A DNA stretch of 64,000 bases. Origin: Azolla caroliniana. Taxonomy: Eukaryota > Plantae > Polypodiophyta. The position numbers and the translations under genes were made by a program. This document shows positions 1,201 through 43,330 of the stretch, in pieces (the stretch's first letter is position 1; every line of letters starts with the position of its first letter). The stretch spans positions 6,634,001 to 6,698,000 of the forward strand of contig JBHGNT010000007.1 of assembly GCA_043228905.1 (NCBI GenBank), in the 5' to 3' direction. Below the pieces are notes generated by a model that saw nothing but the letters and a program-made list of their open reading frames with translations, was not told the DNA's origin and ran no database searches.

Positions 1201-1210
1201 AACTCCCCCT

Positions 1211-5284: not shown

Positions 5285-5315
5285 TTTCTGTGTTAATTTC
5301 GCTCTGATACCACTT

Positions 5316-5984: not shown

Positions 5985-7079
5985 CTTCAAGCTTTGCTCG
6001 GAAATCGAACAAGCAACGGACTTGAAGAAGGTAGTGGAGGAGAGGATCCTTGATAGTTGCGTAGAGTTTACTCTGTGAGAGGTCCTCGGAATTGCCAAGA
6101 AAGAATTCCATGAGGTCATCATCGACCTAATGAAGAGGAAGCGGCTCTCGACGGAGCAAGAAGAGGCAAAGCCCGCAATTGTAATGCATTGTCAACTGAG
6201 GTTCCCGAGGAAGACGAAGACTATGCGGACAATCACTACATGAGGCCGCATTGGGCGAGAGCGACAACGGAGACACCGATACGGGTCGGAGATGTAAAAG
6301 AGCCGTTTGTAGCATTAATCAACCATGGCTCTGAGATCAAACTTATGTCCATGGACTTTTATAAAAAGGGAAAGTGGCCGATCAACATGGAGCATGGGTG
6401 GAAGATTAGAGCGGCGACCCGAGCAACCAAGGAGCTATACGGGGCTTGCCCGAATGTATGTGTGAAGGTGGGGGACGTAGAAATAGATCAACATTTCTTT
6501 GTTCAAGAGACGTCCTCGCACCCGGTCATCTTGGGTGAACCATACATCACGGCGGCTCGCATGGAGACGAAGGTGCTAGACAACGGGTCGACATATGCGA
6601 GGGTCAAGAGCCAAGATGGGAAGCATTCGGTCCAATTCCTTACGGTGAGGCTCAACCATGAGCGCAATCGAGCGCAATCGAGCCTCCCTCAAAGGGGACA
6701 ACCGAGAGGATTTTTTATTCGGGCTATTAAAGAGTGGGGCCGCAATAGCCCGAGGCAAACTAAGACCCTAAACCCTGGTAAAACTATTAAATGTAATAGG
6801 AAACAATTTTGGTTCTCCGAAAATGGAGCTTGTAAAATTAATAGTTTAAGTGATAGAGATAAGTCTAGGGCCAAGAGATACAAAAGGTATCTCAAACAAT
6901 GTAATTTATTGGGGGAAGATGATACTATAAGCGGCGCCATGGAGGCGGTCTCGTTCGACGACACTCTCAGAGAGATGGAGAGGGTAGTCGTTTCGGGCCT
7001 CAATGAAGACAAGGTAATTCCAGTCAACTCAATTGACATGTACACCGCCATCAAAGAGCTTGGGTAGTTGATTGAGGAA
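5985..7079 (+). pseudogene. Gypsy A gag C-terminus, aspartic protease and start of pol
   Basis: ALINHGSEIKLM (degenerate D-x-G-S) and VILGEPY motifs. Stop near 6076 and frameshift near 6185. Confidence 0.8.
6708..6753 (+). promoter_or_regulatory. Putative -1 ribosomal frameshift signal (G GAU UUU / U UUU UUA plus 10-bp stem-loop) of Gypsy A
   Basis: Both heptamers are in the protease frame. TCGGGCTATT (6719-6728) pairs with AATAGCCCGA (6744-6753). The -1 frame is the RT frame. Confidence 0.7.
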
Positions 7080-10000
7080 TGTTGAGAGACAAGCTCAACA
7101 TTTGTGCGTAATATGATGCGTAACCAGTGCGTAGACTGGGTGCATAAAACCGGTACGCAGACCGGTGCGTAGAAAGGCTGTATCGGTGTGTAGACCGAAA
7201 GGCCGTTAGAAAGATATTCCTCGTAAGGAATAGTTTTGGGAGTAAGTGTCGAGGCTCATTTATGAGTAGTCAAGTACTGTCAGTACTTGTGTCAGCCCAT
7301 TGTCAGGGCTTGTATAAAAGTGCTCACTGAGCACATCCTATGTACAGATTGAGTATTATTTTTCGAACTTAAGTTCCTGTGTTACTCTCTCTTTGTCTCT
7401 CTTGTGCGTACTATGAAAACCTAAGCTTTCCATTAAACCTACGTTTTCTGTTGTTCGGTTTTCCTATATTGCTTCCGCACGCCATTCTTTTCATGGTATC
7501 AGAGCGCGAGGGTTGAGAACCTCTGCAGCTGACTTTGCTTGAACGAAAAACCAACGAAGAAGAACAAGAAAACCAATGGACAGAGGAATGGCTAGCTCGC
7601 TTCCAACGGAGAAGCTCGACAGAACCAACTACGCATCTTGGTCCTACAAGATGCACCAGTACCTACTCGGACATGGTTACTGGAGCTATGTCGATGGAGC
7701 AAATGACACAACACCCGATTCGACACACAAAGACTTCCCGGCGTGGGAACAATCGGCGAGCAGAGTGCTATACTGCTTCGCGTCTTGTGTGGGTGAACAG
7801 CTGCTAAGCTACGTTCGGGATGCAAAAACGCCGAAGGGTACATGGGAAAATCTAAAGAAGATTTTCGCCGCGAGCACCACAGCCAGGAAGCTTCAGCTTC
7901 GACAGGAGTTGAGCAACCTACGACAACGCGATTTGTCGGTGGCTAACTATACCTCGAGGATTAAGGACATATGCGACTCCTTAGCTTCCATCGATGTGAA
8001 CATCGAGGAAAGCGAGATGGTCCAAGTTTGTCTCGGGGGTTTGGCGTCGAAGTTCGGGGTGTTCCGAACTGTAGTGTGTACCCGGGAGAATACGTCGTCT
8101 TTTTTCGACTTACAATCGATGCTCCTAGTAGAGGAGAACCACGCGGGTGCGTCGACGAGCACGCACACCGACAACAAGATGTTGCACACGGAGATGGGAA
8201 AGGCCCCGTGGTCGTGGCGGACGAGGAGAGTCGGTACGCAATGGAGGCGGCCGACGGGATCAAGGAAGAACGCAACGAAGTGATGCCGACAGCAATTCCG
8301 GACCCTCCGGAAACAGGGGGAGTCGAGGCGACGAGAACTAGAAAGGGAAATCCGCCACGGAATGCTGGTACTGTGGCAAGAAAGGCCACAGGGAGAGCGA
8401 GTGCTGGAAGAAGCGCGCTGAGTCGGAGAGGTCTAGTTCCGGACATACCGACAAAGGAAATCAGCAGCGATCGCACTACGCCGAAGGATCCGGAAAAGCC
8501 GGAAAAGGGTCAGTCTTCGTGACGAGACACGAAGCAAACTCAATGAAACAATCCGCCCCGAAATCAGACGAGGTGTGGTATGTTGACTCCGACGCGTCAA
8601 ACCACATGACGTGCCACAAGGAGTGGTTCTCATACCTTAAGAAACCGACGAAACCAGGAGTAGTCGCAACTGGAGACGACACTCCGCATCCGATCGCGAA
8701 TGTCGGTGAAGTTCCCTTGAGCCATGTCGGGCAGAAAGGGAAACTTATGAACGTGTTACACGTCCCGACCTTCACGAAGAATCTGGTGTCGGTCGAGCAG
8801 ATCGTCGACCAGGGGATGCAGGTTCGGTTTACGCATCTTGGGTGCTTCATTGAGGAAGAAGGCCAGATTATTGCGCAAGGGCGCAGAGATGGGAGGATGT
8901 TTATCCTCGACTCTACTGACGGTGCCAACGCAATGTTCGCGAAGGGACAAAAAGTCGAGTCGGACATCGAATTATGGCACAAACGAATAGGCCATGTCAA
9001 CTATCAACGGCTTCAAGACCTACAATCGAAACAAGTGGTGTTTGGATTGCCCAAATTTAGTGGTCAGAAGGCACAAATTTGTGAAGCTTGCCAGCTTGGG
9101 AAGCAACACCGACTTCCTTTCCAAAACAAGCGTAATCGGAGCCGGAACAAGCTAGACTTGATACACTCTGATGTGTGGGGGCCGGCACAAAATGTTAGTC
9201 TTGGCGGGAGCCGATATTTTGTCTCCTTCATCGACGACTACACGCGGCACATGTGGATCTACCTCATTGAGAGGAAAATCGAAGTCTTTGACTGTTTCCG
9301 GGACATCAAAGGGTTCGTGGAAACGGACACAGGAAGAAAGATCAAGTGCATGTGGTCGGATGGCGGAAAAGAATACTTTTCCGGTCAATTCAACGGTTAT
9401 CTACAACATATGGGAATTCGGCGCGAATTCAGTTGTAGATACACGCTGGAGCAAAACGGCGTGGCCGAGAGAAAAAATCGGTCGGTTGTGGAAGCTGCAC
9501 GCGCAATGCTGGAAGAGAAGAGCTTGCTCAAGTTCTATTGGGCCGAGGCGGTAAGAACCGCGGTATACATCCAAAACCGGATCGGAGAAAAAGTGTTGGC
9601 GCACGAGCTATACTTTGGAACAAAGCCGAACTTGCGACACTTACGAGTTTTCGGTAGCATTGCGTATGTACATGTGCCAAAGGAGAAAAGGAGGAAGTTG
9701 GACGCAAAAGACGAGAAGTATATCTTGGTCGGCTATTCAGACGAGCAGAAGGGTTATAAGTGTTATAACCCGCGTACCAAACAACTGTGCATGAGCCACG
9801 ACGTTGTGTTTAATTAGTCCGCGTCCTGGTACTTGCCTCCGACTCTGGATCCCACCTCCAATCTGAGTTCTGATGATGAGGACAACGAGGCCGAGGTGCC
9901 TCCGGCTGAGCCTGAAATCGGAACCCCCGAGGAGAGTCCGATTTCATTTCGGTTAAGTGGACCGAATGGACGATTGAGTCGGTATGACCAATCCGATGAA

Positions 10001-12784
10001 GAGCCGGCGAGTAGTGGAGACTCGGCCGTGCATTCCCCGCGTAGGAAGTCGAGGAGACGGCTTACGCGCGAAGAGAAAGGGAAGCAGAAGGTGTCGGATT
10101 CCGGCACAGATAGGAACGAGTCAGATCGACGCAAGTCCGACTTCAAGGGAAGCGGCGACGGGCCTTCAGGAACGAAGTCTGCGTCGGCCGAGAAGACCTC
10201 GACATCAGCAAATGACTGATTACGCCGATCTACCCGCCAAAAGAACTTCGTTGTGCGGTTTGGATACAACGAGTACATGGCGCATCACTATGCATACATG
10301 ACCCGTGTAGCAGAAGTGTGTGAGTCGGGGAGCTACGCAGAAGCGGCGAAGGACGCGAATTGGCGCGTTGCGATGGAGGAAGAGATGCACGCTTTGGCGG
10401 AAAACGAGACTTGGGATCTGGTTGATGCACCGAAGGGTGTGAAGCCGATCGGATGTAGGTGGGTGTACAAGGTCAAGTACAACACCGACGGCTCGGTCAA
10501 CCGATACAAGGCCCGGTTAGTGGCAAAAGGCTATGCGCAGAAACACGGCATCGACTACGATGAGATGTTTGCGCCGGTCGCAAAGATGACGACCGTCTGT
10601 GTTTTGCTCGCAGTAGCCGCGGCCAAGGGGTGGCACCTACATCAGATGGATGTAAAGAATGCATTCCTGCAAGGTGAGCTTGAGGACCAAGTGTACATGG
10701 TACAACCCCCCGGATTTCAGTTCGAACCGAACACGTCGGCAGTATGCCGATTGAAGAAGTCCCTTTACGGACTGAAGCAAGCCCCGCGTGCCTGGAATGC
10801 AAAAATCACGCATCGGCTGCGTCCGATGGGCTTTGCGACGTCAAAATCGGACTCCTCATTGTTCATTCGGAAAGGTCGACTCGGGCCGGTCAGTATTTTA
10901 CTCTATGTTGATGACTTGGTCATCACCGGCACCGACCTAGGTGAGATCAACCGCGTGAAGCTCCAGCTTGCGGCATCATTCGACATGAAGGATCTGGGGG
11001 ACCTTCATTACTTCCTCGGGATCGAAGTGATCCGCACCCTTGAAGGCATACTAATCAACCAACGTCATTACGCGTTGAATATGCTCTTCAAATTCGGGAT
11101 GGCAGACTGTAAGTTCGTCTCGACTCCTCTGGACAGAACTCTCAAGCTTCGCCCCAATTCCGGCAAGGTTTGCGATCCGACAAGGTTCTGACAAGTTGTT
11201 GGAAGCCTTATCTACTTGACCATCACCCGACCCGATCTCAGTTATCCGGTCGGGGTGATCAGTCAGTTCATGGCGCGACCTACCGAGGAGCACCTTCAGT
11301 GTGCACAACGCGTACTGCGGTACGTAAGCGGCACTAAGGACCGCGGACTGTTATATCGGACCGATACAGCCCCGCAGTTGGTCAGCTACACTGATGCCGA
11401 TTGGGCCGGCAATGTCGCCGATCGTCGATCCACGTCCGGACATGCATTGTCTCTTGGGAGTGCCGCGATAGCGTGGAGTAGCAAGAAGCAGCCGACAGTT
11501 GCACTGTCGAGCACCGAAGCCGAGTATAGAGGAGCAGTTGTCGCAACATGCGAAGCCATATGGTTGAAGCGGCTACTTAAGGATCTGCAGGTGGAGGTGT
11601 CTGATCCAACGACGATCTACTGCGACAACCTCAGCAACATCCAACTCGCGAAGAACCCCGTCTTCCATGCACGGACCAAGCACATTGAGGTGCACTACCA
11701 TTTTGTTCGTGAGCGTGTCCTTTCTGGTGAAGTCGAACTTCACTATGTTCCGACAGATCGGCAAACCGCCGACATCTTCACCAAGCGTCTTGGTCTGGAC
11801 AAGTTGCGGCAATTTTTGGGTGCGCTTGGGTTGCGTCACTTCCACGTGCCGAACTTGAGGGAGAGAAACGTCCTAGATGACCACGAAAGGGAGTAGGAAA
11901 GGAGCGGAGAAGACCTCAGATCGGCTGAAGAAGCCGAGAGCGGATCCGCGGAAGAGTCCGAAAGTGGACACAAGGGGAGTAGCCGAAAGAAAGAGCCAAA
12001 GCCAACCAGGTATGGGGGAGATGACGACGTCAATGGCGAGAAGACCGGAGACGAGTTGGAGACAGCCAACTCGGATTAGAGCTCGGATGAGAGCGAAAAC
12101 CGATCGGAGGTAGCCGAGTTGGTTCGGATGTTTGATTCAGATACACTGAATCAACTGAGGGCCAAGCGGAAAAGAAGGCAGCAGGAGAAGCGCCAACACC
12201 GCGACAACAAGGGACCTGTGAAGGGCCGTGGGAGTAGACAAGCCGACCAGAAGGGTCGAAGCTCGCGGAGTCGAACAGGCCGAGGAGCGCGAGCAAGGCG
12301 TGGAGCTAGGAGAAGCCGGAGCGTAGATCCGACAGAGCAAGCAGAACCTAAAGTTGAGCTTGAGGGGGAGTGTTGAGAGACAAACTCAACATTTGTGCGT
12401 AATACGATGCGTAACCAGTGCGTAGACTGGGTGCATAAAACCGGTACGCATACCGGTGCGTAGAAAGGCCGTATCAGTGTGTAGACCAAAAGGCCGTTAG
12501 AAAGATATTCCTCGTAAGGAATAGTTTTGGGAGTAAGTGTCGAGGCTCATTTATGAGCAGTCAAGTATTGTCAGTACTTGTGTCAGCCCACTGTCAGGGC
12601 TTGTATAAAAGTGCTCACTGAGCACATCCTATGTACAGATTGAGTATTATTTTTCAAACATAAGTTCTTGTATTACTCTCTCTCTGTCTCTCTTGTGCGT
12701 ACTGTGAAAACCTAAGCTTTCCATTAAACCTGCGTTTTCTGTTGTTCGGTTTTCCTATATTGCTTCCGCACGCCATTCTTTTCA
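7080..12784 (+). mobile_element. Copia-2: full-length, decayed Ty1/Copia element, TSD AGGAA
   Basis: 414-bp LTRs 7080-7493 and 12371-12784 (about 16 differences by eye). PBS 7494-7505, PPT 12361-12370, TSD 7075-7079 / 12785-12789. Confidence 0.97.
7576..11896 (+). pseudogene. Copia-2 gag-pol with frameshifts and stops
   Basis: Pieces 7576-8283 (gag), 8519-9817 (PR/INT), 10253-11191 (RT, LYVDD), 11216-11896 (RNase H). Confidence 0.92.
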
Positions 12785-12789
12785 AGGAA

Positions 12790-14841
12790 GCAAGGGCGGT
12801 CAAGGTGCAAACAAAGTACAAGACCATGGACAAGAAGGTGAAGCCTGTGGCTGCCCCATTGCCTAACGATTGTTGGGATCGGATAAAGGGGGTAGTGGCT
12901 GATCCTAGCTTGCGGGACCCACGAGGCATAGGGCACCGGTTCACCGACGAGACGCGACAGAAGCTCCGGATTGGTGGGGATGGCTTCCTATCCCCTAGGG
13001 AGGAGGAAAGATTTAGAAGGATGATCAAAAGCCACGGAAGGGCTTTCGCCTTCTCATCGGGTGAGATAGGGTGTGTAAACCCTAAGATCGTGGAGCCAAT
13101 GGTGATCTTTACGGTGCCGCATGTAGCGTGGAACATCAAGCCAATCCCCGTTCTGAGAGCTCACATCCTGAAGTTGATTGAGCTACTCAAGGAAAAGATC
13201 GAGATGGGTATCCTCGAGCCATCAAGCGCCCCATACTCGAATCGGTGGTTCACTGTGCCAAAGAAGAACGGCACATTACGCTTCATCCAGGACCTACAAC
13301 CTGTTAATCAAGTGACAATTCGAAATGCCGGGGTCGGATCGAGCGTTGACGAATTCGCCGAGGCCTTCACTGGAAGGTCTATTTATTCGATCGGTGATCT
13401 ATACTCGGGGTATGATCAATTCCAACTAGTTGTGGAGAGTAGGGACATCACAATGATGTGGACCCCTATCGGCCTAGTGTGAATGTGTACCTTGCCACAA
13501 GGAGGCACTAAGTCTGTAGCCCACATGGTAAATGCAATGAACAAGGTATTGAGAGATTGCATCCCCGATATCACCATGTCGTTCCTCGATGACATCCCCA
13601 TAAAAGGGTACTCTGAAGCGGAGAAAGATGAAACCTTGGACGAGGATGGGTGCAGACATTTTGTGGCATATCACATCTCCGATTGCGAGAAGGTTCTACA
13701 AAGACTCGAACATGCACGCTTGACCTTCTCGGGTGAGAAATCGGCATTCTGCCAACCGGAGATCCTTGTGGTGGGACACTTGTGTGGGGCGTACGGACGG
13801 AAGCCATCCCCGACAAAGGTGGACATCATCACAAACATGAGGGAAGAATGTAAATCGCAAACAGAGGTGAGGCGATTTCTTGGTGCCTGTGCATTCTACC
13901 ACATCTGGATACCGCACTATGCTCACCTAGTCGAGCCCTTGTATGGGCTACTCAAGAAGGGGCGGAAGTTCAAGTGGGAGGAAGAGCACACAGAGGCAAT
14001 GAAGAGGCTCAAAGGAATGTTGGTAGCAGCACCAACTTTACAAAAAGCCATATACAAGGAAGGGGTGCCCATCTACGTGACAATAGATACGAGTCCAACA
14101 GGGATTGGATGGGTCATAAACCAAGGAGAGGATGGTACACGCTACGCCATCCAGTTTGGAGCCAAGGTCTTAAGCGAGCGACAACGAGGATACACCCAAG
14201 TAAAACGGGAGCTTTGGGGTATTGTATCCAGAGTAAAGGCAGATAAAGATTACCTAATCGGGTCAGAGGTGGTAATAGAGACGGATTGCCTTCCAATCCT
14301 AGGGATGGTTTCGGGATGTGCAACACCTAACCTAGCTATGCTAAGGTGGATTGCTTACATCAAATCAATGAACCCGGAGATTCACCACATTTCAGGGATG
14401 AACAATGCCATGGCAGATGTGCTATCGAGGGCAAGATTCGAGGACGAAAGCGACATGGTGTCTGAAGATGAGGATGTCGCTCTTGACTTCTTTAAGACGG
14501 CCCAAGCGTCTATAGATGATCGAGATGTGCGAGTACTCCATGCGTTCAACGAAAGTGAATACAAAGGGGAGTGGCTACACATTGGCAAGTTCTTAAGCTC
14601 AATGACAGTGGATAGTTCATGGTCGAAGAAGGAAGCACAGAGAGTCTGAAAGAAAGCGTACAAGTACTTCCTACGAGGGGGATTCCTCTGGAGGCCCCCG
14701 AAGACAAGGACGGGGACGCCACAACGAGTGGTCATAAAGGAAGAAGACCAGAAAACATTGGTATCTGAGTTCCACGAGAGTCCTTGGGCGGGCCATAGAG
14801 GAACGTGGGCAACATTTGAGAAGTTAAAGGAGAAGTATTGG
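12790..14841 (+). pseudogene. Gypsy A RT, RNase H and integrase zinc-binding region
   Basis: Motifs PKKNGTLRFIQDLQ, DLYSGYDQ, FLDD, IDTSPTG, HESPWAGH. Stops at 13480 and 14647. Confidence 0.9.
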
Positions 14842-15350
14842 TGTCATGATATGGCAAGACTCGAACCCATGACCTTAGGTTATATGGGTCGAGCTCTTAA
14901 CCATTATATCATCTATTGTAATACGTAGGATATTATTTTCATTTACATTTTATTATAGGAAATTAATGTATATTCCAGATTTCTCTGGAACATTCTAGAA
15001 GCTTCAGGATTACTCCTGAAAACACTATAAAAGAGGGCACTAGGCATTATGTCGAACCAAATTGGTTCAACGCTAGTCTTAAGCCTTTTAGCCACCATTG
15101 TATATTCTCTTCACATAATACATATCTTTCTTATCATCACTCTCTCCCTCTCTCGATCTCTCTCTTTCTCTCCGTCTCGCTCACTTCTTCCTTCTCTCGA
15201 AGAAGTTCTACACCTCTCATAGTACTAATCCTTCGTTTAGTAATAATTCCTTCTCTGTCTTAGTACTGTTCCTGACAGTTTGAACCAATTTTCCTACCGT
15301 CTGTCTCTCTCATTTCCTACTAATCTCTTATTCCTCTTTTCTTTCATCCC

Positions 15351-16497
15351 ATGGCCATTGTTAGCGTTGAAGAATATCGATCTTTTTTCTCGGAATTGCA
15401 ATGCTTGAAAGAGAAGTTCCATGCTTTGGAACAAGAAAACCAACGGTTGTTGGGGGATCTTCAGCAAATCTCCTTAGAAAAGCAGCAAACGCAACAACAA
15501 CATGGGGAACTTGCATTACGCGTGCAACAACTCGAAGCAACCATCGTAGCGATGCAACAACAAGGGCCCGGAACACAAGGGATTCATAAAGAACCCACGA
15601 TTGGCCTTCCCACGAAGTTCGATGGAACACGATCGCAGTTTAGAGGGTTCCTTAACCATGTATGATTAGTTATTCAAATGCATCCTTCCCGATATCCCAC
15701 CGATGCATCACGAGTGGGTTTATTAGGCACTTTGTTAAGTGGCTCAGTGTTGGCATGGTTCGCTCCACTATTAGAAAAGGAACGTTACTCAACAATTTTG
15801 AAGAGTTTCTAGGTGAGTTTAAAGCATGTTTCAGAGATACTGACAACATCAAGACCGCAATCAACAAAATTCGGCGATTACGCCAAGGTGACCGTCCAGC
15901 CTCCGCATACGCTGCAGATTTTCGCCTACTCACCGCCGATATCCCTTGGGATGATCAAGCGTTGATGGAGCAATTCCGTTATGGTTTACGCAATGACGTC
16001 AAGATTTACTCTTGACCTTCCCCGAAGAGCCAAAGTCCTTAACAGAAGCAATCAGTCGCGCGGTGAGATGTGACAACCGCCTCTTCGAGTGACGTTCGGA
16101 ACGACAGCTACAGATATCGAGGGCAAGATCAGAGCCCACCTACGCCTCAGTGGTAGCAAGACCTTTTCCGAGGGAGTCATATAATGCGCCTCCAACGAAT
16201 AATCCGACTCCGATGGAGATTGACACTACACATCGTCGAGGGCCATTATCCGAAGAAGAAAAGTAGCGACGTCGTACAAATCGACTATGTCTTTACTGCA
16301 GTGGACCAGGACATATTGCAATAAATTGCCCCCATTGGCTAAGAAGACAGGTAAACCAAATAGTCACTAGTTCTAATTGTACTAAACCCGAGTCTATTTC
16401 AGTAGGGATATCTGATAGTCCTAATAGTACTAATAGCCCAGATCTAGCGAACAAATTTGATGTCCTTAGTCAGTTAGAAGAAGAGTTAAACGACTAA
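15351..16497 (+). pseudogene. Chromovirus B gag (coiled-coil N-terminus, retrotransposon gag, CCHC)
   Basis: PTKFDGTRSQFRGFL, LRQG, PTPMEID and LCLYCSGPGHIAINCP motifs, with frameshifts and stops. Confidence 0.88.
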
Positions 16498-16540
16498 GTC
16501 CAGCCAAAATAGGAGCCGTTTGGTTGGACAGCCCTAGATC
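16485..16540 (+). promoter_or_regulatory. Putative gag/pol -1 frameshift signal of chromovirus B (G UUA AAC plus stem/pseudoknot)
   Basis: Heptamer 16485-16491 in the gag frame, 6-nt spacer, 11-bp stem 16498-16508 / 16519-16529. The -1 frame is open into the protease ORF (16524). Confidence 0.75.
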
Positions 16541-19500
16541 TGTGCAGCCCATCAGTGGTTCCATTCCCTCTAAGCAAGTTAGTGATGTGTTTGTAGCCCA
16601 AGTAATAGTTAGTACTAAAAGTACCCCTCAAGTACATGTCCTAGAACTTCTAGATTCCGGAGCTAACTCTTGCTTTATGGATAAGAAATTTTCTCAAGCT
16701 CATAAGATATCCCTAAGAAAACTCCAGTGTCCAGCCTCTATAGTAGTCATTGATGGACGTCCCATTGCTTCCGGAAATATCATAGAAGAGTCAGAGCCCA
16801 TTAATATTGTCCTAGATAACTTAGCATGTGTAGTATCATTTAATATTATTAGTATCCCAGAACATCCCATAGTTTTAGGATTACCGTGGTTCGAGTACAT
16901 AACCTAGACATAGATTGGAGAACAAGAGAAATCCGGTGTCGACAAACCCAAGGGTCAACTCAAAAGATGGCAACCATTTCGCTACGTCAGTTGCGTAAAG
17001 AAGGGTGCAAGGAGGAAATGTTCCTCTTTGCAATATCAGTAAACCCCTCCATCACCACTAAAGAAGAATCCACCGTTCAACTTCCCGAGAAGTATCGTCA
17101 TTACGCCGATGTGTTCGATAAAGTACAAGCCAACACACTTCCTCATCATCGACCATACGATTGCCCCATCGACTTACAACCAGGAAAAGAGCCGCCATGG
17201 GGACCGATCTACAATTTGTCACCAACCGAACTGGAAGTCCTTCGGGCCTATATAGAGGAGAATTTGGAAAATGGTTTCATTCGGCATTCGAAATCTCTAG
17301 CCGGCGCACCCATTTTCTTCGTCAAGAAAAAGGATGGATTGCTTTGTCTCGTTGTAGATTATTGTGGCTTGAATAAGGTTACAATCAGGAATATGTATGC
17401 TCTTCCCCTTATCTCAAGTCTTTTAGAATGGATCAATGGTGCCAGGTTCTTCACGAAGATCGACTTACGGGGAGCATATAACCTCGTACGAATCCGACCA
17501 GGAGACGAATGGAAGACCGCGTTTCGCACCAGATATGGGCACTTCGAGTATACGGTCATGCCGTTCGGCCTCACTAATGCGCCAACAGTCTTCCAGCACT
17601 TGGCTAATGATATATTCCGAGATCTATTGGATGATTGTTTGATCATCTATTTGGATGATCTACTGGTTTATTCAAAGACCCAAGAAGAACATGATTCTCA
17701 TGTACTATTAGTACTAAAACGACTTCGAGAACATGGTATGTATGCAAAGCTGGAAAAATGTAGTTTCGGGTGCAACCAAGTGGAATTTCTCGATTACATC
17801 ATTTCGTCAGAAGGCATCTCCATGGACCCAGCTAAGGTCAAAACAGTGGTAGAATGGCAGACTCCGTGTTCGGTGCGGGATGTGCAATGCTTCCTAGGCT
17901 TTGCCAATTTTTACCGGAAGTTCATACAAGATTACTCAAAGATCGTTCTACCTCTCACACAACTTACCAAGAAGGGACAATCGTTCATCTGGTCTGAAGA
18001 AACGGACATGGCTTTCGAGAGTCTTAAAAAGGCATTTACATCGGCTCCAATTCTAGCTCATGTCATTCCGGAAAAACCATTCATTATCGAAGCTGACGCA
18101 TCGGATTTTGCATTGGGGAGCATTCTGTCACAACAGGGGAATGAAGAGAAGCTACATCCTGTGGCTTTTCACTCACGCAAGTTTGACGCCGCCGAAATCA
18201 ACTGCGAAATTCATGATAAGGAGCTATTGGCAATAGTGGATTCTTTTATGCAATGGAGGCATTTTCTGGAGGGATCCTCTCATCCAGTCACCGTATTTAG
18301 GGACCACAAGAACCTTGCCTACTTTCAGGATGCTCGTGTGTTGAATCGACGTCAAGCTCGGTGGGCCCACTTCCTCGCGCATTTCGATTTCAAAATTACA
18401 TATCGTCTGGGGAAGCACCAAGGGAAGGCAGATGCATTATCACGGCGTTCGTATCTAGCACCCCGTCCCGGCGAGCCAGCTTTCGATAACAAAAAACAAG
18501 TCACCTTGGGACCGGCACGACTACAAGCAACACAGATCTTTGACATGCCCATGGATTCCCGCGTTATCGATACCATACGTGAAGACTTGAAGATAGATGC
18601 ATTTGCCCAAGCTATACTAGCACAAATTGATCCCTCTTGAGCGTCGTGTTCACTGTCGCAACCACCAGGTACGGACTATCGGCAATTCAAATACCATGAT
18701 GGATTACTCTTCTTTAAAGAACTTTTGTATGTTCCTAATGGTTCTTGCCGCCTTCGAGTAGTACAAAACTGTCATGACACATATACATCTGGGAATTTTG
18801 GTAGTACTAAAACATTAGATTTAGTACAACGATCATTCTGGTGGCCCTGTATGCGACAATTTGTCGAGGATTTTGTTCGGACTTGTGATACATGTTGCAG
18901 AGCGAAAATACCAAGGCATCATCCATATCGTTTATTAGAACCATTACCAATTCCAAGCAAGCCATGGCAATCCATTGCTCTAGACTTCATCACAGATCTT
19001 CCAGTCTCTAAGGGGTTCAATGCGATTCTAACGATGGTCGATCGATATACGAAGATGGCTCATTTCTTGCCATGTACTAAGGAGATCTCCAGTGAAGACA
19101 CTACCGAATTTGTCATGCGTGAAGTATGTCGGCATCATGGACTTCCCGATAGTATCATCTGCGACCGTGGACCCCAGTTCGTGTCAAAATTCTGGAAGCA
19201 CCTTTTTAACATGCTCAAGGTCACTTGTAACCTCTCCTCCGGCTACCACCCACAAACCGACGGCCAAGCCGAATGAACAAATCAAACGGTGGAGCAGTAT
19301 CTGCGGTGCTTTCTCAGCTATCATCAGGATGACTGGGCAGATATTCTCCACTTTGCCGAATTTGCCTATAACAACTCTATCCACGCATCCATTAAAGTTA
19401 CGCCATTTTATGCTTATACGAGATGTCACCCCCCGGTGGAGTGTACTTGAAACCCCAGAGGTGTCCACAAATCCGTGTGCAGAGGATCGTTTGGAGAGGT

Positions 19501-20180
19501 TACGCAAGATACAAGCGGATTTATCTACTCATCTCCAGCAAGCTCAACAAACACACAAGGTCTACGCGGATCGTCATCGACTTCCATCTAGTTTTAATAT
19601 TGGAGATCGGGTGTGGCTGCTACGACGACACATCAAGACTACTCGCCCATGTGAGAAGTTGGATTATCAGCCCGCGGATCGTCATCGACTTCCATCTAGT
19701 TTTAATATTGGAGATCGGGTGTGGCTGCTACGACGACACATCAAGACTACTCGCCCATGTGAGAAGTTGGATTATCAGCGATTAGGTCCTTTCCATATTA
19801 TCGAAAAGATTAATGATGTCGCTTTTCATCTCGATCTACCTCCTCAACTTCGGATACATCCGGTGTTTCATAGTTCTCTCCTCGAACCCTATCACGAGAG
19901 CACCATCCCATGATGTCTTATACAACCTCCACCCCCGATCGAGCTTGAAGATGGGCTAGAGTACGAGGTTTCCGCCATCCTTGATTCCAAGATTGTTCGC
20001 AACAAGCTCTACTATCTAGTCAATTGGCTAGGCTATAGTCCCAGCGAACGTACTTGGGAACCGATCGAGAATGTGACAAATGCTCGTGCTCTTCTTGAAG
20101 ACTTCCATCGTCAATATCCACACAAACCGGGTCCTCAATCCAAGACGACTCGTGACACTCGTCGTTTTAAAGGGGGGATA
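16524..20180 (+). pseudogene. Chromovirus B pol (PR, RT, RNase H, integrase, GPF, chromodomain)
   Basis: LLDSGA, YLDD, DASD, DRGPQF, GPF and EYEVSAILDSKIVRNKLYYLVNWLGYSPSERTWEP, with several stops and frameshifts. Confidence 0.92.
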
Positions 20181-20622
20181 ATGTCATGATATGGCAAGAC
20201 TCGAACCCATGACCTTAGGTTATATGGGTCAAGCTCTTGACCATTATATCATCTATTGTAATACATAGGATATTATTTTCATTTACATTTTATTATAGGA
20301 AATTAATGTATATTCCAGATTTCTCTGGAACATTCTAGAAGCTTCAGGATTACTCCTGAAAACACTATAAAAGAGGGCACTAGGCATTATGTTGAACCAA
20401 ATTGGTTCAACGCCAGTCTTAAGCCTTTTAGCCACCATTGTATATTCTCTTCACATAATACATATCTTTCTTATCATCACTCTCTCCCTCTCTCGATCTC
20501 TCTCTTTCTCTCTGTCTCGCTCACTTCTTCCTTCTCTCAAAGAAGTTCTACACCTCTCATAGTACTAATCCTTCGTTTAGTAATAATTCCTTCTCTGTCT
20601 TAGTATTGTTCCTGACAATTGG

Positions 20623-22200: not shown

Positions 22201-23109
22201 ACTTCTGTTGCTTCCAGTCTTCAATTGTCTTGTCTTCTAGAAAGACTACATCTCGACTTCTCGCTACCTTCTTGTTGACTAAGTCCCATAGCCTGTAGCC
22301 GAACTCATCTTCCGAGTATCCCATGAATATGCATGCTTTCGACTTGTTGTCGAGCTTTGACCTCTGATCCTTTGGTACATACATATACGCCAAACATCCA
22401 AACACCTTCAGATGTTGATAAGAGACATCCTTACTTGTCCACACCCTCTGTGGGACATCACCCTTTAATGGTATGAGGGAGACATGTTGATCAGATAGAC
22501 AATTGTGTACATCGCCTCAACCCAATAGGATTTCGGCAGTTTCGAATGAGAGAGCATGCTCCTTACTCTCTCCATGATCGTTCAATTCATCCTCACTTCA
22601 AGCCCGTTCAATTTTGTGGTCTTTGGCATTGTGTATTCGATCCGAATACCTTGGCAATTGCAGTATTCTTCGAACTGCCCTTTATACTCGCCACCATTGT
22701 CGGTTCGGACAACCTTCAATTTCTGACCCGACTCTCTTTCAATTCTTACCTGGAACTCCTTGAAAACCGACAGTACTTGATCCTTCGACTTCAGTACGAA
22801 GGCCCATGTCTTCCGACTATAGTCGTCAATAAACGTTACAAAGTACTGTCCTCCTCGATGCGATGGAGCATCCACATAGCACACATCTATGTGTACTAGT
22901 TCCAGTGCGGCTTCTCTTCTCCTTGGTGGTCTCGAGTGGAATGTCGCCCTATTCTGCTTTTCGACTAAGCAGTCGACACACTTCTCCAAGTGTACTCCCT
23001 TGACTTCTTGTAGAAGTTTTTGGTCAGCTAACATGTGCATTCCCTTCTCACTATAAAGAATCAAGAGATGGATTCTTGTGAAGCAGAAGAGATGTGAGTT
23101 ATGTGTGTG

Positions 23110-23161
<52 letters not shown>

Positions 23162-24609
23162 ACACAGAGAATACGCAAGGTAAAAAATATATTGACAAAG
23201 GAGAAAGAGTCAACATTTTACAAGGTGGGAGGAGGGTGCTTTATGTAGTCACCCTCTCTCTTCATTAACTACAAGGCTCATGGAGCATGGGGAATGTGAA
23301 AGCTCATAAGTTATGTGTCATAGAATATGATTCTATGACTCATACTAAATGCTAGAATACAAAGTGGTGACATAATGGTGACTCTTGACCGTTGGAGTGT
23401 CTCTTCTCTCTCAAGGTGAGTTCACACACTAGACCAAGTTGAGGTTGATTCTCAACACACCCCCTCAAGCTCAAGTCAGGTCGGTTTCAGACTGTATCCG
23501 AAATCCGCTTCAACTCGCGTTCTGGAGTCCGCGTCAACTCGTGTCGACTCGCATGTATGCGGAGTTGCGGAATCCGTGCTCCAGCTTGCGTTGTGCGTAG
23601 TTACGAAGTCTGTGCTTCGGCTTGCGTCTTTCTTCGCGGCTTTGTTGCGTGGTTGCGGAATCCACACGTTATTGCATAGTGTCTTCAGTACTCCCCCTCA
23701 AGCTTGGCAGGTCAGGGATCGTCAATCCGAGATCGGTCATGAATTGCCATAGCTTGTCGGCTCCTAAGGCTTTAGTGAAGATGTCAGCCATTTGAAGATT
23801 GGTGCTAATGTGTTGTAGGTCGACATCGCCAGCTAGAACGCGCTCTCGAATGAAGTGATAGTGCACTTAGATGTGCTTTGTCCGCGCGTGGAACACCGGG
23901 TTCCGAGCCAGATAGATACTGCTCATGTTGTCGCAGTAAAGGGAAGTTGGATCCTTGATGGGTATGCCCAAATCCTTCAAAATCCTCTTGAGCCATACGG
24001 CTTCACACGCAGCTACGGTTGCGCCCCTGTATTCCACCTACGTACTCGAAAGAGCGACGGTAGGCTGCTTCTTGCTACTCTAGGATATTGCTCCACTGTC
24101 GAGGGAGAAAACAAATCCGGAGGTTGATCTTCTATCGGCTTTGTAGCCAGCCCAATCAGCGTCTGTGTACCCCTTGAGTCGTATTGGCATTGCGGTCTTG
24201 TAGAGGATGTTGCAATCCATTGTGCCGCTCACGTATCGTAGAACTCGCTTAGCGCAATCCAAGTGAGTATCACGCAGTGTTTGCATGAATTGGCTAAGGA
24301 GACCGACCGGATAACTCAGATCGAGTCGTGTGATCGTGAGGTAGATGAGACTCCCGATGAGTTGCCGATATTGAGTCGGCTCACACGCTTTGGTGCCGAA
24401 GTTCGCATCTAGTTTGAGATTACGATTGAGCGGGGTTGCCACAGATTTGCACTCAGCCATCCCGAACTTGTATAATAAGTTGAGGATGTAGTGTCATTGA
24501 GAGATCATGATTCCGTCCGGAATCTGAATTACCTCGATGCCAAGGAAGTAGTGGAGCTCCTTCATGTCCGTCATCTCGAACTTGTCGGAAAGGAGGGATT
24601 TGACCTTAT

Positions 24610-37737: not shown

Positions 37738-40700
37738 TGTTGAGATATCAAGCTCAACTAGTTTAATCTAGTTAGTCAACACATGTAACTTAGTAGTTAC
37801 CTAGATCGAATCTAGTTAATGTGTTGACCTTAAGCCTTAAAATTGGACCTTGTACTTAAGTGCGATATTCTAGATCCTCCACTCCTTAGTACATTTAATG
37901 TAGGACTTACACGTAAGTACCTATGTTCTACCCACACATGTGCACCTTTGCACATGGGTTGTATATATACCTCATTGTGGGTATTTTTGTAGTTGATGAC
38001 ACTTTTCAATATAGTCAATCATCCCCCATTTATCTTTGTTCAAGTGTAACTTCCTCTCTCTCTCTCTCTCTCTTCCTCTCACACACTCTCACGCGCATAT
38101 CATACTAATCTTCCGCTGCTTAACGTAACCATATAATTAGTCTCTAATTAACCCTAGTTAATTACCTAATTACTTAACATGGTATCAGAGCGCGTGGTTT
38201 AGGAAATCCACTAAGCCCACCGCTTATTCGTGATTGTGTGTTCGAGACGCCGACGACAAATCCCGGCTATTCGTTATCCGCTACCGTAGTGCCGCTACGA
38301 AGGACGCGTACGCGACCAAGAGAAGAAAAACAAAACGGAAGACACAACAATCAACATGAACAAACAAATGGGAAGCTCGCTCCCTAGCGAAAAGCTAGAC
38401 CGAAGCAACTACTCATCTTGGGAGTACAAGATGAATCAATACCTTGTCGGCCAAGGGTATTGGAGCTACATCAACGGCGCACAAGAAAACAAACCCGAAA
38501 CCACGCATGCCAACTACCCAACATGGGAGCAAGGCGCGAGTCGGGTAATGTATTGCTTGGCAACATGTGTAAACGACCACATGCTTAGCCACATTCGTGA
38601 TGCCAAGACGCCCAAAGAGGCGTTGGAAAATCTCAAGAAGATTTTCTCCGCGGACCCATCCGCGCGCAAGCTTCAACTCCGACAAGAGTTGAACAACATA
38701 CGACAAAAAGAAATGTCCATGACGGACTACACCGCCAAGATCAAGAGCATTTGCGACTCTCTTGGCTCCATCAACGTCAACATCGACGAGGACGAGATGG
38801 TGCAAGTATGCTTGGGCGGCCTCACACAACGATTCAACCCGTTGAGAACGACAATCTTGGTGAGAGATACCCCTCCCTTGTTCTTCAACCTCCAATCAAT
38901 GCTATTGGTCGAAGAAAACCACGTTCAACCAAAGACCAACACATCGGAAGGACAAATGCTCTTCTCCGATACGGATGGTGCCCATAGACGAGGTCAACGT
39001 GGAAGAGGTCAATTCGACCTATCCCACGAAGGGAATTCACAATTTCGGCAAGGAAACGGGACCCATCGAGGAACCTTCACAAGAAGGGGGAGCTTCCACG
39101 CTGAACAAGGTCGGCGAACGACGCCACCTACGTGCAACTATTGTGGCAAAATCGACCATCGTGAAGAGGAGTGCCAAAAAAGACGAAGCGGGTCGGCCTC
39201 AACAAGCCGGCAACTCACAAATTATGCCGCGAACGCGGAATACGCGGACTACGGCGGACTCTTCGTGATGAGGCATAGAGCGAACTCTATGATGGCCTCC
39301 GATCCCGCAAATTCCGCAAGCATCTCCAACTCCGAACACACGTGGTTCGTAAACTCTGGTGCCTCACACCACATGACGTCGCACCAAGAGTGGTTTCGCG
39401 ACTTGTGAACGCCGGATCGACCCGACTACATAGAGACCGGAGACGACACTCCGCATCCCATTCGGCACATCGGCAATGTCCCATTCGGGAAAGAAGGCGA
39501 GCAAACTTGCATCAAGAATGTCTTGCACGTGCCCACAATAACAAAGAATTTGGTCTTGGTCGGCCAAATCGTGGAGCAAGGCATGCAAGTCCGCTTCAAC
39601 AATGAAGGTTGCTTCATCGAGAAAGACGGCCGACTCATAGCCAAGGGACGGAGAGACAGTCGCCTGTTCATCCTCGACTCAAACGAGGTAAAATCAGCCA
39701 TGTACGCCACAGGTCTCAAGACCAAGACAAACATCGAGTTGTGGCTCAAGCGAATCGGCCACGTAAACCTCCAACGGCTTCGCAGAATGCAATCAAAGGG
39801 AGTCGTAATCGGACTTCCGGCCTTCGAATCGAAACGAGTCGACCGAGTGTGTGAAGCATGCCAACTCAGCAAACAACATCGACTCCCATTCCCGAAGGAG
39901 AGCTCCGCAAGCAAAGGCCTCCTTGACATAATCCACTCGGATGTATGGGGACCGGCTCAAACGCCGACGCTTGGCGGATGCCGCTACTACATATCTGATT
40001 TTCTCTGAAGAGTGAAAAGATTGGATTGGATGGCAAAACGTTAACGCGGTGTATTTTCTTTGTGTTTCAGATTAATACGCAGGGGTTTCCTGCAGGTTTT
40101 CAAATGCGCTACGCGTGGATATACCCGATGAAGAAGAAGAGCGAAGTGCTCTCCCACTTTCAAAGGCTCAAAAGCCAAGTGGAGAAAGAAACCGGTCGGC
40201 ACATTCGATGCCTACGATCGGACGGAGGAAAGGAGTACTTCTCCGACGAGTTCACCTCTTACCTCCAAGGTGAAGGCATTCGTAGAGAATTCTCATGCCG
40301 ACACACTCCCCAACAAAACGGAGTAGCCGAGAGAAAGAATCGGCAAATACTCGAGGTAGCACGCGCCATGATGCATGAGAAGCACATGCCGAACTTCTAT
40401 TGGGCGGAAGCGGCATCCACGGCCGTCTATCTCATGAATCGATGCACCACAAATAGCGTGCACGAGCTTACTCCATACGAGATCTTTGTTGGAAGAAAGC
40501 CCATCCTCTCGCACCTCAAGGTGTTCGGAAGCATTGTGAATGTACGCATCCTGAACGAAAGTCGAGAGAAGCCCGAGCGAAGTCGGAAGAATGTATCCTC
40601 ATAGGATACTTGTCCGCGAAAAAGGCGTACAAATGCTTCAACCCTTCGACTCGAGCGGTCGGATAAGTCACGACGTCGTTTTCGACGAATCGGCATCTTG

Positions 40701-41788
40701 GTATAAGCCCAATGCGACTCCATCCGACCCGATCGAGGAAGAGTTGAACGCCAACTCGGACAACGAAACTTGGCCAAGTTCTCCACCGAAGGACAATCCA
40801 AGCTCTACCGAGCTAATTGGCCCACAAGAGCCTCCACACGATGAAAACACATCGTGGCCAAGTCTGACATCGGACAAAGGCAAAGGTAAGATGCTCGAAT
40901 ACGAAGTCGAGGTCCACCCCAACGACCGTGATTCGGATGATTCGGCTCGCTCACTAGACAGTGAGTTCGATGTACCCATCATGAGGACACCCGGAGTAAA
41001 GAAGGTACTCACATCGACAAACGAGAAACCCCACCGCTCATCACGAGCGAAGACCCAAGTCACTCGTTACGCCTACAACGAGTATATGGCCCATCACTAT
41101 GCCCTCACGATGAAGGTAGTGGCCGAACAAGAGCCTGAGGATCCAAGCCTTCGTCACAGGCTTGAGGGGGAGAACAAAGTCGTGGAGAACCGCGCAACAA
41201 AGCCGCGGAGAACCGCGCAACAAATCCGCGAAGACGCGACGAAAGCCGCGCAATGCCGCGAAGAAAGCCACAAGCCGCACCAATGCCGACGAAGCCGAAG
41301 GAAGCTAAACCGGACATTGGACGCCTCACACTTGAGCTTGAGGGGGCGTGTTGAGATATCAAGCTCAACTAGTTTAATCTAGTTAGTCAACACATGTAAC
41401 TTAGTAGTTACCTAGATCGAATCTAGTTAATGTGTTGACCTTAAGCCTTAAAATTGGACCTTGTACTTAAGTGGGATATTCTAGATCCTCCACTCCTTAG
41501 TACATTTAATGTAGGACTTACACGTAAGTACCTATGTTCTACCCACACATGTGCACCTTTGCACATGGGTTGTATATATACCTCATTGTGGGTATTTTTG
41601 TAGTTGATGACACTTTTCAATATAGTCAATCATCCCCCATTTATCTTTGTTCAAGTGTAACTTCCTCTCTCTCTCTCTCTCTTCCTCTCACACACTCTCA
41701 CGCGCATATCATACTAATCTTCCGCTGCTTAACGTAACCATATAATTAGTCTCTAATTAACCCTAGTTAATTACCTAATTACTTAACA
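37738..41788 (+). mobile_element. Copia-5: young non-autonomous Ty1/Copia lacking RT and RNase H, TSD TAGAC
   Basis: LTRs 37738-38179 and 41349-41788 (1 substitution plus one CT unit). PBS 38180-38191, PPT 41339-41348, TSD 37733-37737 / 41789-41793. Confidence 0.96.
38356..41140 (+). pseudogene. Copia-5 gag-protease-integrase, disrupted; gag part open for 350 codons
   Basis: Gag with CNYCGKIDHREEEC, WFVNSGAS, stop at 39406, integrase interrupted at ~39997, coding ends at the RT start motif EPE. Confidence 0.88.
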
Positions 41789-43330
41789 TAGACCATAGAG
41801 CACTCTAGAATATTCTAGAACATAGAGTACTCTAGAATACTTTAGAATGTTTTATAATATTCTATATAGCTTATAAATATTACAATGGCTAAGAATTCGA
41901 CACGTATATAACAAGGTTGTGGGTTCAAATCCTTGTAAACCCAAATCATATGTGAGTGGCATCATGACACTATCCTCCTTCGACGACACGTATTGGGGGT
42001 CACATGGGTTGTACTAGGACTTGGCTTACAAGGATATCGTCAATGAAATTTGATGATGACCATGTCCGCAACGTTGGCAAGATTTGTTGCAGGTTCCCAA
42101 GTTCGACCATTAGGTGTATAGCCTAACCAATCGACCAAGTAATACAGCTTGTTGCACATGATATTGGAATCTAGAATGGCAACAACCTCAAATTCTGGTC
42201 CTTCCAAAAACTCCACAGGTGGTGGGGGAGTTGTAAGACAACCTGGAATTGAACTTGTGGTGTAAGGTTCGAGAAGGGAGACATGAACCACCGAGTGAAG
42301 ATCCATGTGAGGAGGGAGGCCAAGACAGAATGCAACATCGCTTATCTTACTAGTGATCTCGTACGGGCCAAAGCGTTGGTAATCTAATTTACCGCAAGCC
42401 CTAGTGGTCTTGATGTTGTGTTGTAGAAGCCATACACAATCCCCGACATGAAACTTGTTGGAGTAGTCTAGGCCATGACGATCCGCAATACGCTTGTAAG
42501 TACTTTGAGCATCACGCAAATTGTGGAGAATGGTAACGTGAATTTCTTGGAGGCGACTAAGGTGATCCTCAACAACAAGTTTGATAGGAACTCCGGGGTG
42601 TTCAATCATTGTCCAACGAGGATGATAGCCCGTATTTGTGAAAATGGAGAATATCCCGTAGAAGAATGAACCGAGTTGTTATAAGCAAATTCAGCCAAGT
42701 GTAGAAAATCAACCCAATTATCTTGTTGATAGTTGATGAAACATCGAAGATATTGCTCCAAAGTCTGGTTGGTACGCTCAGTTTGCCCATTAGTATTTGG
42801 ATGATAGCCCGAAGAAAGTTTAGTCGAAACTTGGAGAAGTTTTAACATGTGCTTCCAAAACTTTGAGATGAATTGTGGACCTAATTATGTAATATCAATG
42901 AATACTCTACCTTTTTCTTCTTCTTCTTCTTCTTCTTCATGATCTACTTCTAACAAAACATATCCACCCGACGCCACTAGTGACATCAACACGGGAGAGA
43001 GAAAACATGTGTGTGTGAATCCACCCCATCTAATTGTGTAATATCAATGAAGACTCTCACCTTCTTCTTCTTCTTCTTCTTCATGATCTTCTTCTTACAA
43101 AACATGTACAAATATATATGTTTTATATACCTTAATATATATGTATATATATTATGTGTAAACTCTTCTTCTTCATCATCATCAGAGAAGGGAAAAAAAG
43201 CACAACGATTGATCTCTCGCCATAGCTCAACTTAGAAGCTGAACAAAGAAACTCTACTGCTCAACCCCTTACCCTAATATTCCCTCCCCTTTCCCCTTCA
43301 TTCTTCTCTGAGAACGGAACAAAAGTAAAG

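What the first reader, a model, noticed from the sequence alone, without database searches (positions are those of the whole stretch)
14842..14915. Antisense tRNA-like (Pol III A-box/B-box) module built into the U3 end of chromovirus LTRs
Seen: the reverse complement of the first ~70 nt of the B LTR reads TGATATAATGG TTAAGAGCTC GACCCATATA ACCTAAGGTC ATGGG TTCGAGT C. That is an A-box-like 11-mer and a B-box GGTTCGAGTC at tRNA spacing (taking the first T as position 8 puts GTTCGA at 53-58), with a CCCAT..AACC segment loosely like a Met anticodon arm and an ATGATAT/ATATCAT closing stem. It is present in both LTRs (also 20182-20255). The diverged chromovirus E LTR has the same module in the same place and orientation (TATTACAATGGCTAAG...GGGTTCAAATCC, 41878-41932). 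Known analogy: Cassandra elements carry 5S rRNA Pol III promoters in their LTRs. Inference: a tRNA-derived module is kept in a lineage that appears not to use tRNA for priming. It could give outward or antisense Pol III transcription, TFIIIC-type insulation from surrounding heterochromatin, or a structured RNA. I do not know a description of this, but I cannot search the literature.
Basis: partly seen in the sequence, partly recalled or inferred. Interest (0 to 1): 0.85.

Follow-up and report, generated by a model that had tools for sequence, protein, structure and literature searches.

The report
Backward tRNA promoter in retrotransposon LTRs
A branch of protein-coding plant jumping genes keeps the two promoter boxes of a tRNA gene, pointing backwards, at the outer edge of its end-repeats while the DNA beside them has changed beyond recognition, which likely means these elements recruit RNA polymerase III factors to help keep their own promoter open in silenced chromatin.

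Summary
Real, and not confined to this window. The antisense A box/B box pair sits in both LTRs of element B and in the second chromovirus LTR. Relatives were fetched by integrase-chromodomain protein, not by the boxes. All 19 close relatives with enough 3' LTR carry the module; 0 of 8 distant ones do. They form nine families with largely unalignable U3; a tenth family, not used in training, also has it. T8-to-G53 spacing is 44-47 nt except in one family (53). It is not a tRNA: no ARAGORN or Rfam hit, cloverleaf pairing at chance, no Met anticodon arm. It is not a loose SINE and not the primer, since these elements look self-primed. No terminator is conserved, but the flank where TFIIIB would bind is AT-rich in 10 of 10 families. 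Best reading (0.45, untested): a TFIIIC/TFIIIB site acting on LTR chromatin. Rivals: antisense Pol III RNA, Ty3-like tRNA pairing in U3, relic. Closest known: Helenus TRIMs (non-autonomous; sense in the entries I saw). The scan noted tRNA-type boxes in LTR elements of other, probably fungal, genomes. No expression or binding data.

The parts
14842..15277 (+). 5' LTR of chromovirus element B (TG...CA); target duplication ATTGG at 14837-14841 and 20618-20622
14901..14911 (-). A-box-like 11-mer (tRNA positions 8-19), 7 of 8 consensus positions; G10 is lost in this copy but present in other subfamilies
14871..14875 (-). AGGTC block at tRNA variable-loop positions 44-48, conserved across families
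14858..14866 (-). B box (tRNA positions 53-61), 8 of 8 consensus positions
14919..14968 (-). AT-rich 50-nt flank upstream of the module, where TFIIIB would be placed (inferred)
15026..15032 (+). TATA box of the predicted Pol II promoter, about 30 nt before the self-primer
   Evidence: sequence; same layout in related LTRs
15059..15070 (+). predicted 5' end of the genomic RNA: 12-nt self-primer complementary to the PBS
15280..15291 (+). primer-binding site, complementary to 15059-15070
15278..20181 (+). internal region of B: gag-like frame by eye, RT, RNase H, integrase, SH3 and chromodomain; broken by frameshifts, a 107-bp duplication and an in-frame stop
20182..20617 (+). 3' LTR of B, preceded by a polypurine tract
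20198..20251 (-). second copy of the A box/B box module (B box 20198-20206, A box 20241-20251)
41878..41931 (+). module in the second chromovirus 3' LTR (A box 41878-41888, B box 41923-41931), antisense to that element
41789..41969 (-). first 180 nt of the second chromovirus 3' LTR; it continues at 37737 beyond the Copia insertion
37738..41788 (+). Copia element inserted in that LTR (duplication TAGAC), 78-82 nt upstream of the module's tRNA position +1
41970..42881 (-). truncated internal part of the second chromovirus (SH3, chromodomain, PPT); no 5' LTR found in the window

Best explanation
The module is a tRNA-type A box/B box pair, conserved back to front at the outer end of U3 across a clade of apparently self-priming chromoviruses, and it likely works as a DNA site for TFIIIC and TFIIIB that helps keep the LTR's own Pol II promoter open when the element lands among silenced repeats. 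Shown: boxes, spacing, orientation, clade-wide retention, AT-rich upstream flank, loss of the cloverleaf, no fixed terminator. Inferred: an ancestor captured a tRNA or tRNA-SINE head; TFIIIC binds the boxes and would place TFIIIB on the AT-rich flank between the module and the Pol II TATA box; the complex would form a nucleosome-poor barrier at the LTR edge, with any Pol III transcription pointing away from the Pol II promoter. The backward orientation would also keep a tRNA-like T loop out of the genomic RNA.
For: 19 of 19 close loci with enough 3' LTR carry the module, 0 of 8 distant ones. Anchored on the B-box side only, the A-box score peaks at distance 45 (50.6 against mean 23.5, sd 4.9, over 98 other distances). 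Anchored on A-box 3' half plus AGGTC only, a B box of at least 7/8 follows in 17 of 20 module LTRs and 0 of 5 distant ones. Variation fits the B-box consensus: G19, T47, G53, T55, A58 are invariant in 19 rows while position 57 is G in 9 and A in 9. The 50 nt upstream are more AT-rich than the rest of U3 in 10 of 10 families (0.82 against 0.60, Wilcoxon p 0.002); plant tRNA genes have an AT-rich, TATA-bearing flank (PMC3082873, passages). Within family B, 6 positions of 94 vary at 8% or more of contig depth in four runs, none in the B box, AGGTC or G18-G19. No shared fold and no shared terminator argue against a defined RNA product. tRNA genes and TFIIIC sites are linked to open chromatin and insulator activity (PMC11346459, passages).
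Against: No binding, chromatin or expression data. The 5' half of the A box is weak: G10 in only 7 of 19 rows, absent from the whole second-element family; C61 in 15 of 19. The plant CAA motif is not at -7 to -3. The AGGTC block and the near-fixed spacing are more than TFIIIC is known to need (own knowledge) and fit an RNA-level constraint equally well. A rod hairpin pairs 70.9% of cells (0 of 500 shuffles), which a pure DNA site would not need. [quoted passage not shown] The ten families are related, so they are not independent observations.
Confidence: 0.45

Rival explanations
1. The boxes are a working Pol III promoter and the antisense RNA is what is selected: a hairpin small RNA, or a read-through antisense RNA over the PPT and integrase end that would tune copy number or silencing, loosely like the Pol III miRNA cassettes in foamy virus LTRs.
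For: Both boxes and the AT-rich flank are kept. Family B folds into a strong 75-nt rod (z -3.9 to -4.4). The rod register has changes on both sides in 11 of 16 pairs (8 of 500 shuffles). Common variants at 14883 and 14899 improve its pairing.
Against: The first run of four T lies at nt 62-63 in 4 of 20 LTRs, 74-80 in 2, 114-150 in 5 and 452-1088 in 9. RNAalifold finds no consensus structure. The rod is weak in L006, L012, L014 and L031 in that register, not significant in the second window element (z -0.3), and folds equally well on both strands. Terminator runs are no scarcer upstream of module LTRs than upstream of distant elements.
Confidence: 0.2
2. It works in the genomic RNA: U3 carries the complement of the D loop and T arm of a host tRNA, or a hairpin just after the PPT, and would help packaging, strand transfer or plus-strand start, as in the 3' part of the Ty3 bipartite PBS.
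For: The orientation is the one this needs. Ty3 U3 pairs with the T and D arms of tRNAi-Met (PMC5371799, passages). The best-conserved block is contiguous over positions 43-58 and spacing matches a real tRNA. Most changes at 49-52 are transitions that G-U pairing would tolerate.
Against: The 5' PBS pairs with the element's own R start over 12 nt in 5 of 9 PBS sites found and 10 nt in one more; in the L004/L022 family primer and PBS changed together while the module's B box did not. G19, G46, T47, G53 and T55 could change by wobble-tolerated transitions but barely do. No single donor tRNA is recognisable, and the AT-rich flank is unexplained.
Confidence: 0.2
3. It is a neutral relic of an old tRNA or SINE capture, carried along in U3.
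For: A-box 5' half and cloverleaf are decayed. Several copies have box mutations (T56 in 3 of 19). The Selaginella element SM-Tcn1 lacks it by eye, so relatives do without it. Earlier scan notes judged similar fungal cases to be passengers (unchecked).
Against: The rest of U3 is largely unalignable between families and varies from 85 to 228 nt between module and TATA, while boxes and spacing persist. Common variants avoid the boxes.
Confidence: 0.1
4. It is a landing pad: Pol III factors on the module would attract integrases of the same or other elements, as tRNA genes attract Ty3 and Tj1.
For: One Copia insertion lies 78-82 nt upstream of the module's +1. Tj1, a self-priming Tf1 relative, integrates upstream of Pol III genes (PMC4600332, passages). 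Lead from earlier scan notes.
Against: One case only, inside a palindromic TCTAGA array. Copia-type LTRs also interrupt the integrase end of related elements (L018, L028, L036). Element B sits inside another gypsy element. Attracting insertions into one's own U3 would be costly.
Confidence: 0.05

Closest known systems
Helenus / TRIMp3 (Kojima 2024, PMC10886601; parts 1-4 of 6 of the text, searched passages, one supplement passage)
   Same: tRNA-derived sequence in both LTRs, conserved at boxes A and B (GGTTC core), not a functional tRNA, not the primer. Helenus-1_SMo also keeps AGGTC before the B box.
   Different: Helenus are non-autonomous TRIMs of 311-1263 bp with tRNA-primed PBS, proposed to use Pol III to make their own genomic RNA; the entries I saw are in sense orientation. 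Here the carriers are 5.8-kb protein-coding chromoviruses with a TATA promoter and self-priming, and the module is antisense, so it cannot make the genomic RNA. The paper notes that 'not a few LTRs' have tRNA-like parts but followed up only TRIMs.
Cassandra TRIMs (as described in PMC10886601)
   Same: Pol III internal promoter inside the LTR of a plant LTR element.
   Different: 5S rRNA type promoter, non-autonomous, drives the element's own transcript.
Simian foamy virus Pol III miRNA cassette (PMC3993851, passages)
   Same: A/B-box Pol III units with hairpins in the LTR of an autonomous retroelement.
   Different: Those have terminators and shown miRNA products; here no terminator or fold is conserved and no product is shown.
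Ty3 bipartite PBS (PMC5371799, passages)
   Same: Sequence in U3 of a gypsy element complementary to tRNA T and D arms.
   Different: Ty3 is tRNA-primed and pairs one defined tRNA; these elements look self-primed and match no single tRNA.
Tcn1 clade chromoviruses (PMC6317226 and PMC2864245, passages; SM-Tcn1 supplement read whole)
   Same: Chromodomain with aromatic-cage residues by eye, predicted self-priming, similar R-start motif, LTR end and PBS start.
   Different: SM-Tcn1 U3 is a tandem array with no visible module; neither paper's passages mention tRNA-type boxes in U3.

Membership tests
tRNA gene | Cloverleaf fold with acceptor, D, anticodon and T stems | tested here: not met
   44.4% of cells paired against 43.3% in shuffles, 132 of 500 as high
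tRNA gene | Recognised by ARAGORN or the Rfam tRNA model | tested here: not met
   No call on any module; ARAGORN did call an unrelated tRNA-Pro in L030
Type 2 Pol III promoter | A box and B box at tRNA-like spacing | tested here: met
   A-box 5' half degenerate in several families
Type 2 Pol III promoter | AT-rich/TATA upstream flank of plant tRNA genes | tested here: met
   10 of 10 families richer in AT than the rest of U3; no fixed-position TATA tested
Type 2 Pol III promoter | CAA motif at -7 to -3 and a T-run terminator close downstream | tested here: not met
Type 2 Pol III promoter | TFIIIC binding and Pol III transcription | not testable with these tools
   needs ChIP, in vitro transcription or stranded reads
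tRNA-derived SINE | Free-standing copies with body, tail and own target duplication | tested here: not met
   All strong profile hits in the window and 47 loci lie in chromovirus LTRs; only about 297 kb searched, not a genome
Helenus / TRIMp3 | Non-autonomous TRIM (up to about 1.3 kb, no proteins) | tested here: not met
   B is 5.8 kb with RT, RNase H and integrase domains
Helenus / TRIMp3 | tRNA-derived sequence with conserved A/B boxes in both LTRs | tested here: met
Helenus / TRIMp3 | Boxes oriented to transcribe the element; tRNA-complementary PBS | tested here: not met
   antisense boxes; PBS pairs with own R start
Foamy virus-type Pol III miRNA cassette | Conserved hairpin with terminator and a processed small RNA | tested here: inconclusive
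   strong rod in family B, none shared by all families, no terminator; RNA product untested
Ty3-type bipartite PBS | 5' PBS complementary to the 3' end of the tRNA that pairs in U3 | tested here: not met
   PBS is self-complementary to R; pairing of U3 to a non-priming tRNA not testable without a host tRNA set
Tcn1 clade (Tf1/sushi group) | Gypsy domain order with C-terminal chromodomain | tested here: met
Tcn1 clade (Tf1/sushi group) | Self-priming PBS | tested here: met
   12-nt pairing in B and four related sites, with covariation; sequence-level prediction only
Tcn1 clade (Tf1/sushi group) | Phylogenetic placement with reference Tcn1 elements | not tested
   no reference sequences in the tree; likeness to SM-Tcn1 judged by eye

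The most novel reading that the evidence does not exclude
An autonomous retrotransposon clade carries its own TFIIIC-based insulator: it captured a tRNA promoter, keeps it backwards at the LTR edge, and so stays transcribable after its chromodomain steers it into heterochromatin, seeding Pol III factor sites wherever these high-copy elements land. One family has a second antisense A/B module in frame inside pol.
Probability: 0.3. Interest if true: 0.85.

Novelty: new variant of a known kind. Interest (0 to 1): 0.62.

Why it matters
Chromoviruses are thought to integrate into silent chromatin yet must be transcribed there; the moss element RLG1 is both concentrated in heterochromatic islands and expressed (PMC7466625, passages; whether RLG1 carries this module was not tested). 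A conserved 55-nt module gives that puzzle a direct mutational test. It would also extend Pol III promoters in LTRs from non-autonomous TRIMs to autonomous elements, in an orientation that needs a different explanation, and would place many candidate TFIIIC sites in the host genome.

Tried and rejected
No whole genome was held, so copy number, solo LTRs and free SINE copies could not be surveyed genome-wide. No RNA holder was listed; the runs guessed to be RNA that I laid (X20, flagged as probably DNA, and X23, depth mostly under 20) are contigs and cannot show strand or expression. Viral contigs gave no relative for the integrase query and one distant one for RT; prokaryote genomes gave none. 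Rfam and ARAGORN gave no tRNA call. Cloverleaf rejected. RNAalifold gave no consensus. Strand preference of the rod was not decisive: 44 G-U against 27 A-C cells, similar energies on both strands. Selection against terminators in the antisense read-through path was not supported. An unbiased k-mer scan of U3 was dominated by LTR-end and AT-rich words at 8-9 nt; module words led only at 10 nt, in 6 of 9 families. In ungapped register 10 of 54 module columns and 4 of 64 upstream columns had 8 or more of 9 identical letters, a modest contrast. L008 has an equally good plus-strand A/B score (15), so one such score alone is weak. The donor tRNA could not be identified. Ten literature searches found no description of this module; the library lacks most subscription papers, and the large REXdb supplements of PMC6317226 and the DOC supplements of PMC2864245 could not be read. 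A tRNA-like sequence in HIV-1 U3 aiding strand transfer is recalled only; one search did not find the paper.

Full report
The window is a nest of LTR retrotransposons, mostly Copia plus gypsy elements. Element B spans 14842-20617, with 436-nt LTRs that differ at 8 sites and a 5-bp target duplication. It encodes RT, RNase H, integrase and an SH3-chromodomain end, now broken. A 12-nt stretch about 30 nt after its TATA box is complementary to the sequence just past the 5' LTR, the pattern of Tf1-type self-priming. With the chromodomain this points to the Tcn1 clade, which in plants is reported only from mosses and club mosses (PMC6317226, passages). The host is therefore likely a moss; this is inference and no reference Tcn1 sequence was in my tree.

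On the minus strand both B LTRs have a 7/8 A box and an 8/8 B box with 45 nt from T8 to G53, and 0 of 200 shuffles of each LTR start reach that score (consensus motifs recalled). A scan of 297,092 bases on both strands gave 20 sites scoring at least 15 of 16: 12 LTR modules, 2 inside pol, 6 elsewhere, one of them an ARAGORN tRNA-Pro. The second chromovirus has one LTR in the window, split by a Copia element, with the module at 41878-41931.

To avoid circularity I fetched relatives by the integrase-chromodomain protein: 46 metagenome loci. I scored 27 of them; 18 had no recognisable 3' LTR after the match and one had only 26 nt. All 19 close ones carry the module antisense within the first 135 nt of the LTR; none of 8 distant ones does. 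Per-LTR shuffle results for the 22 module LTRs including the window's three: 11 at 0/200, 6 at 2-9/200, 5 at 18-45/200 (for L014 the scan picked another site); the distant ones scored 86-200/200. By the rest of U3 the carriers fall into nine families with little alignable sequence between them (L006 and L008 share a short block, and L022 shares TCTAGA repeats with the second-element family). A profile of the module found four further LTR copies not used to build it, among them a tenth family, L030, and no hit in any distant locus. On a tree of 34 integrase-end rows, all 18 module carriers plus 2 rows without a visible LTR form one branch at 99/98 support, with the 9 non-carriers outside (midpoint root, no clade test, L023, L026 and L031 left out as too short). 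The non-carriers are at most 50% identical, so the exact edge of the module clade is unknown. The Selaginella element SM-Tcn1 lacks it by eye.

Two independent anchors agree. With the B-box side as anchor, the A-box score peaks sharply at distance 45 (z 5.5). With the A-box 3' half and AGGTC as anchor, a B box of at least 7/8 follows in 17 of 20 module LTRs and 0 of 5 distant ones. Spacing is 44-47 except 53 in L012. In 19 aligned rows G19, T47, G53, T55 and A58 are invariant, position 57 alternates G/A as in the B-box consensus, G10 is present in 7 and C61 in 15. In contigs of four runs, 6 of 94 positions of the B-family module vary at 8% or more, none in the B box, AGGTC or G18-G19 (only contigs at least 80% alike are counted). 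G10 is restored in 43-100% of depth in the four runs; it is not in the variant table, but clipped ends there show subfamilies with G10.

It is not a tRNA: ARAGORN and Rfam give nothing and the cloverleaf pairs at chance. It is not the primer: in the L004/L022 family primer and PBS changed together while the module's B box stayed. All strong hits are in chromovirus LTRs, so it is not a loose SINE in the 297 kb searched. Family B folds into a long rod on either strand (z about -4). That register pairs 70.9% of cells over 19 rows with two-sided changes in 11 of 16 pairs, but it was derived from B, the rows are related, it fails in four families, and RNAalifold finds no consensus. No terminator position is shared. 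The 50 nt upstream of the module are AT-rich in 10 of 10 families, as expected of a plant TFIIIB site (PMC3082873), though the CAA motif is not in its usual place.

Mechanism. The pattern (boxes, spacing and upstream flank kept; fold and terminator not) fits a DNA site for Pol III factors better than a defined RNA. TFIIIB would sit between the module and the Pol II TATA box, and Pol III would point away from it. I put 0.45 on a chromatin-opening or barrier role, 0.2 on an antisense RNA product, 0.2 on Ty3-like pairing or structure in the genomic RNA, 0.1 on a relic and 0.05 on a landing pad. All steps after sequence conservation are inferred. The conserved AGGTC block is not explained by the best model, although Helenus-1_SMo keeps it too. 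A template switch to a tRNA early in plus-strand synthesis would give exactly this position and orientation, but an antisense SINE insertion would too; neither was tested.

Comparison. Helenus (PMC10886601) is the closest system: tRNA-type boxes in LTRs, but in short non-autonomous, tRNA-primed elements, in sense orientation in the entries I saw. Foamy viruses have Pol III hairpin genes in their LTRs (PMC3993851), and Ty3 has tRNA-complementary sequence in U3 (PMC5371799). Ten searches found no description of an antisense module conserved across an autonomous chromovirus clade; subscription papers, Repbase and the large REXdb supplements were not visible. Of PMC3350952 and PMC13570524 I saw passages only; they added nothing on this point. 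Earlier scan notes report tRNA-type boxes in LTR elements of other, probably fungal, genomes (unchecked); none matched this sequence. Verdict: a real, clade-wide, apparently undescribed variant of a known kind, with an untested function.

Noticed in passing
L004:2939-3012 and L022:5079-5153 (minus strand): A second antisense A box/B box module (16/16 and 15/16, spacing 43) lies in frame in the protease-RT linker of one family; 2 of 16 database proteins with a visible linker have the matching peptide. Element B has a shorter linker.
   Followed up: partly
window 15054-15076 and related LTRs: The self-primer sits in a palindrome whose right half resembles a sense B box; the L004/L022 family has diverged from that likeness while keeping PBS pairing.
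   Followed up: partly
SM-Tcn1 record, supplement of PMC2864245: By eye its R start is complementary over 14 nt to the sequence after the 5' LTR, so it looks self-primed, although the paper reported no evidence for that.
   Followed up: no
window 37738-41788: A Copia element is inserted 78-82 nt upstream of the module's +1, inside an array of TCTAGA palindromes; single case.
   Followed up: partly
L030:3199-3270: A tRNA-Pro gene or copy (ARAGORN) lies between two divergent chromoviruses of this clade, about 2.3 kb and 1.7 kb away.
   Followed up: no
L002, L004, L022: An LTR is flanked by a PPT on one side and a PBS on the other; in L004 and L022 the two units are about 85% identical. Tandem elements or assembly chimeras.
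   Followed up: no
L016:1594 and L043:209 (minus strand): A/B-box-like sites outside a recognised chromovirus LTR, possibly host tRNA-derived repeats or chance.
   Followed up: no
window 605-5984, 7076-12787, 23054-33949, 24608-29946: Further nested elements with near-identical LTR pairs (95-99.8%), Copia-type where domains were scanned, and a non-chromovirus-like gypsy element that hosts element B.
   Followed up: no
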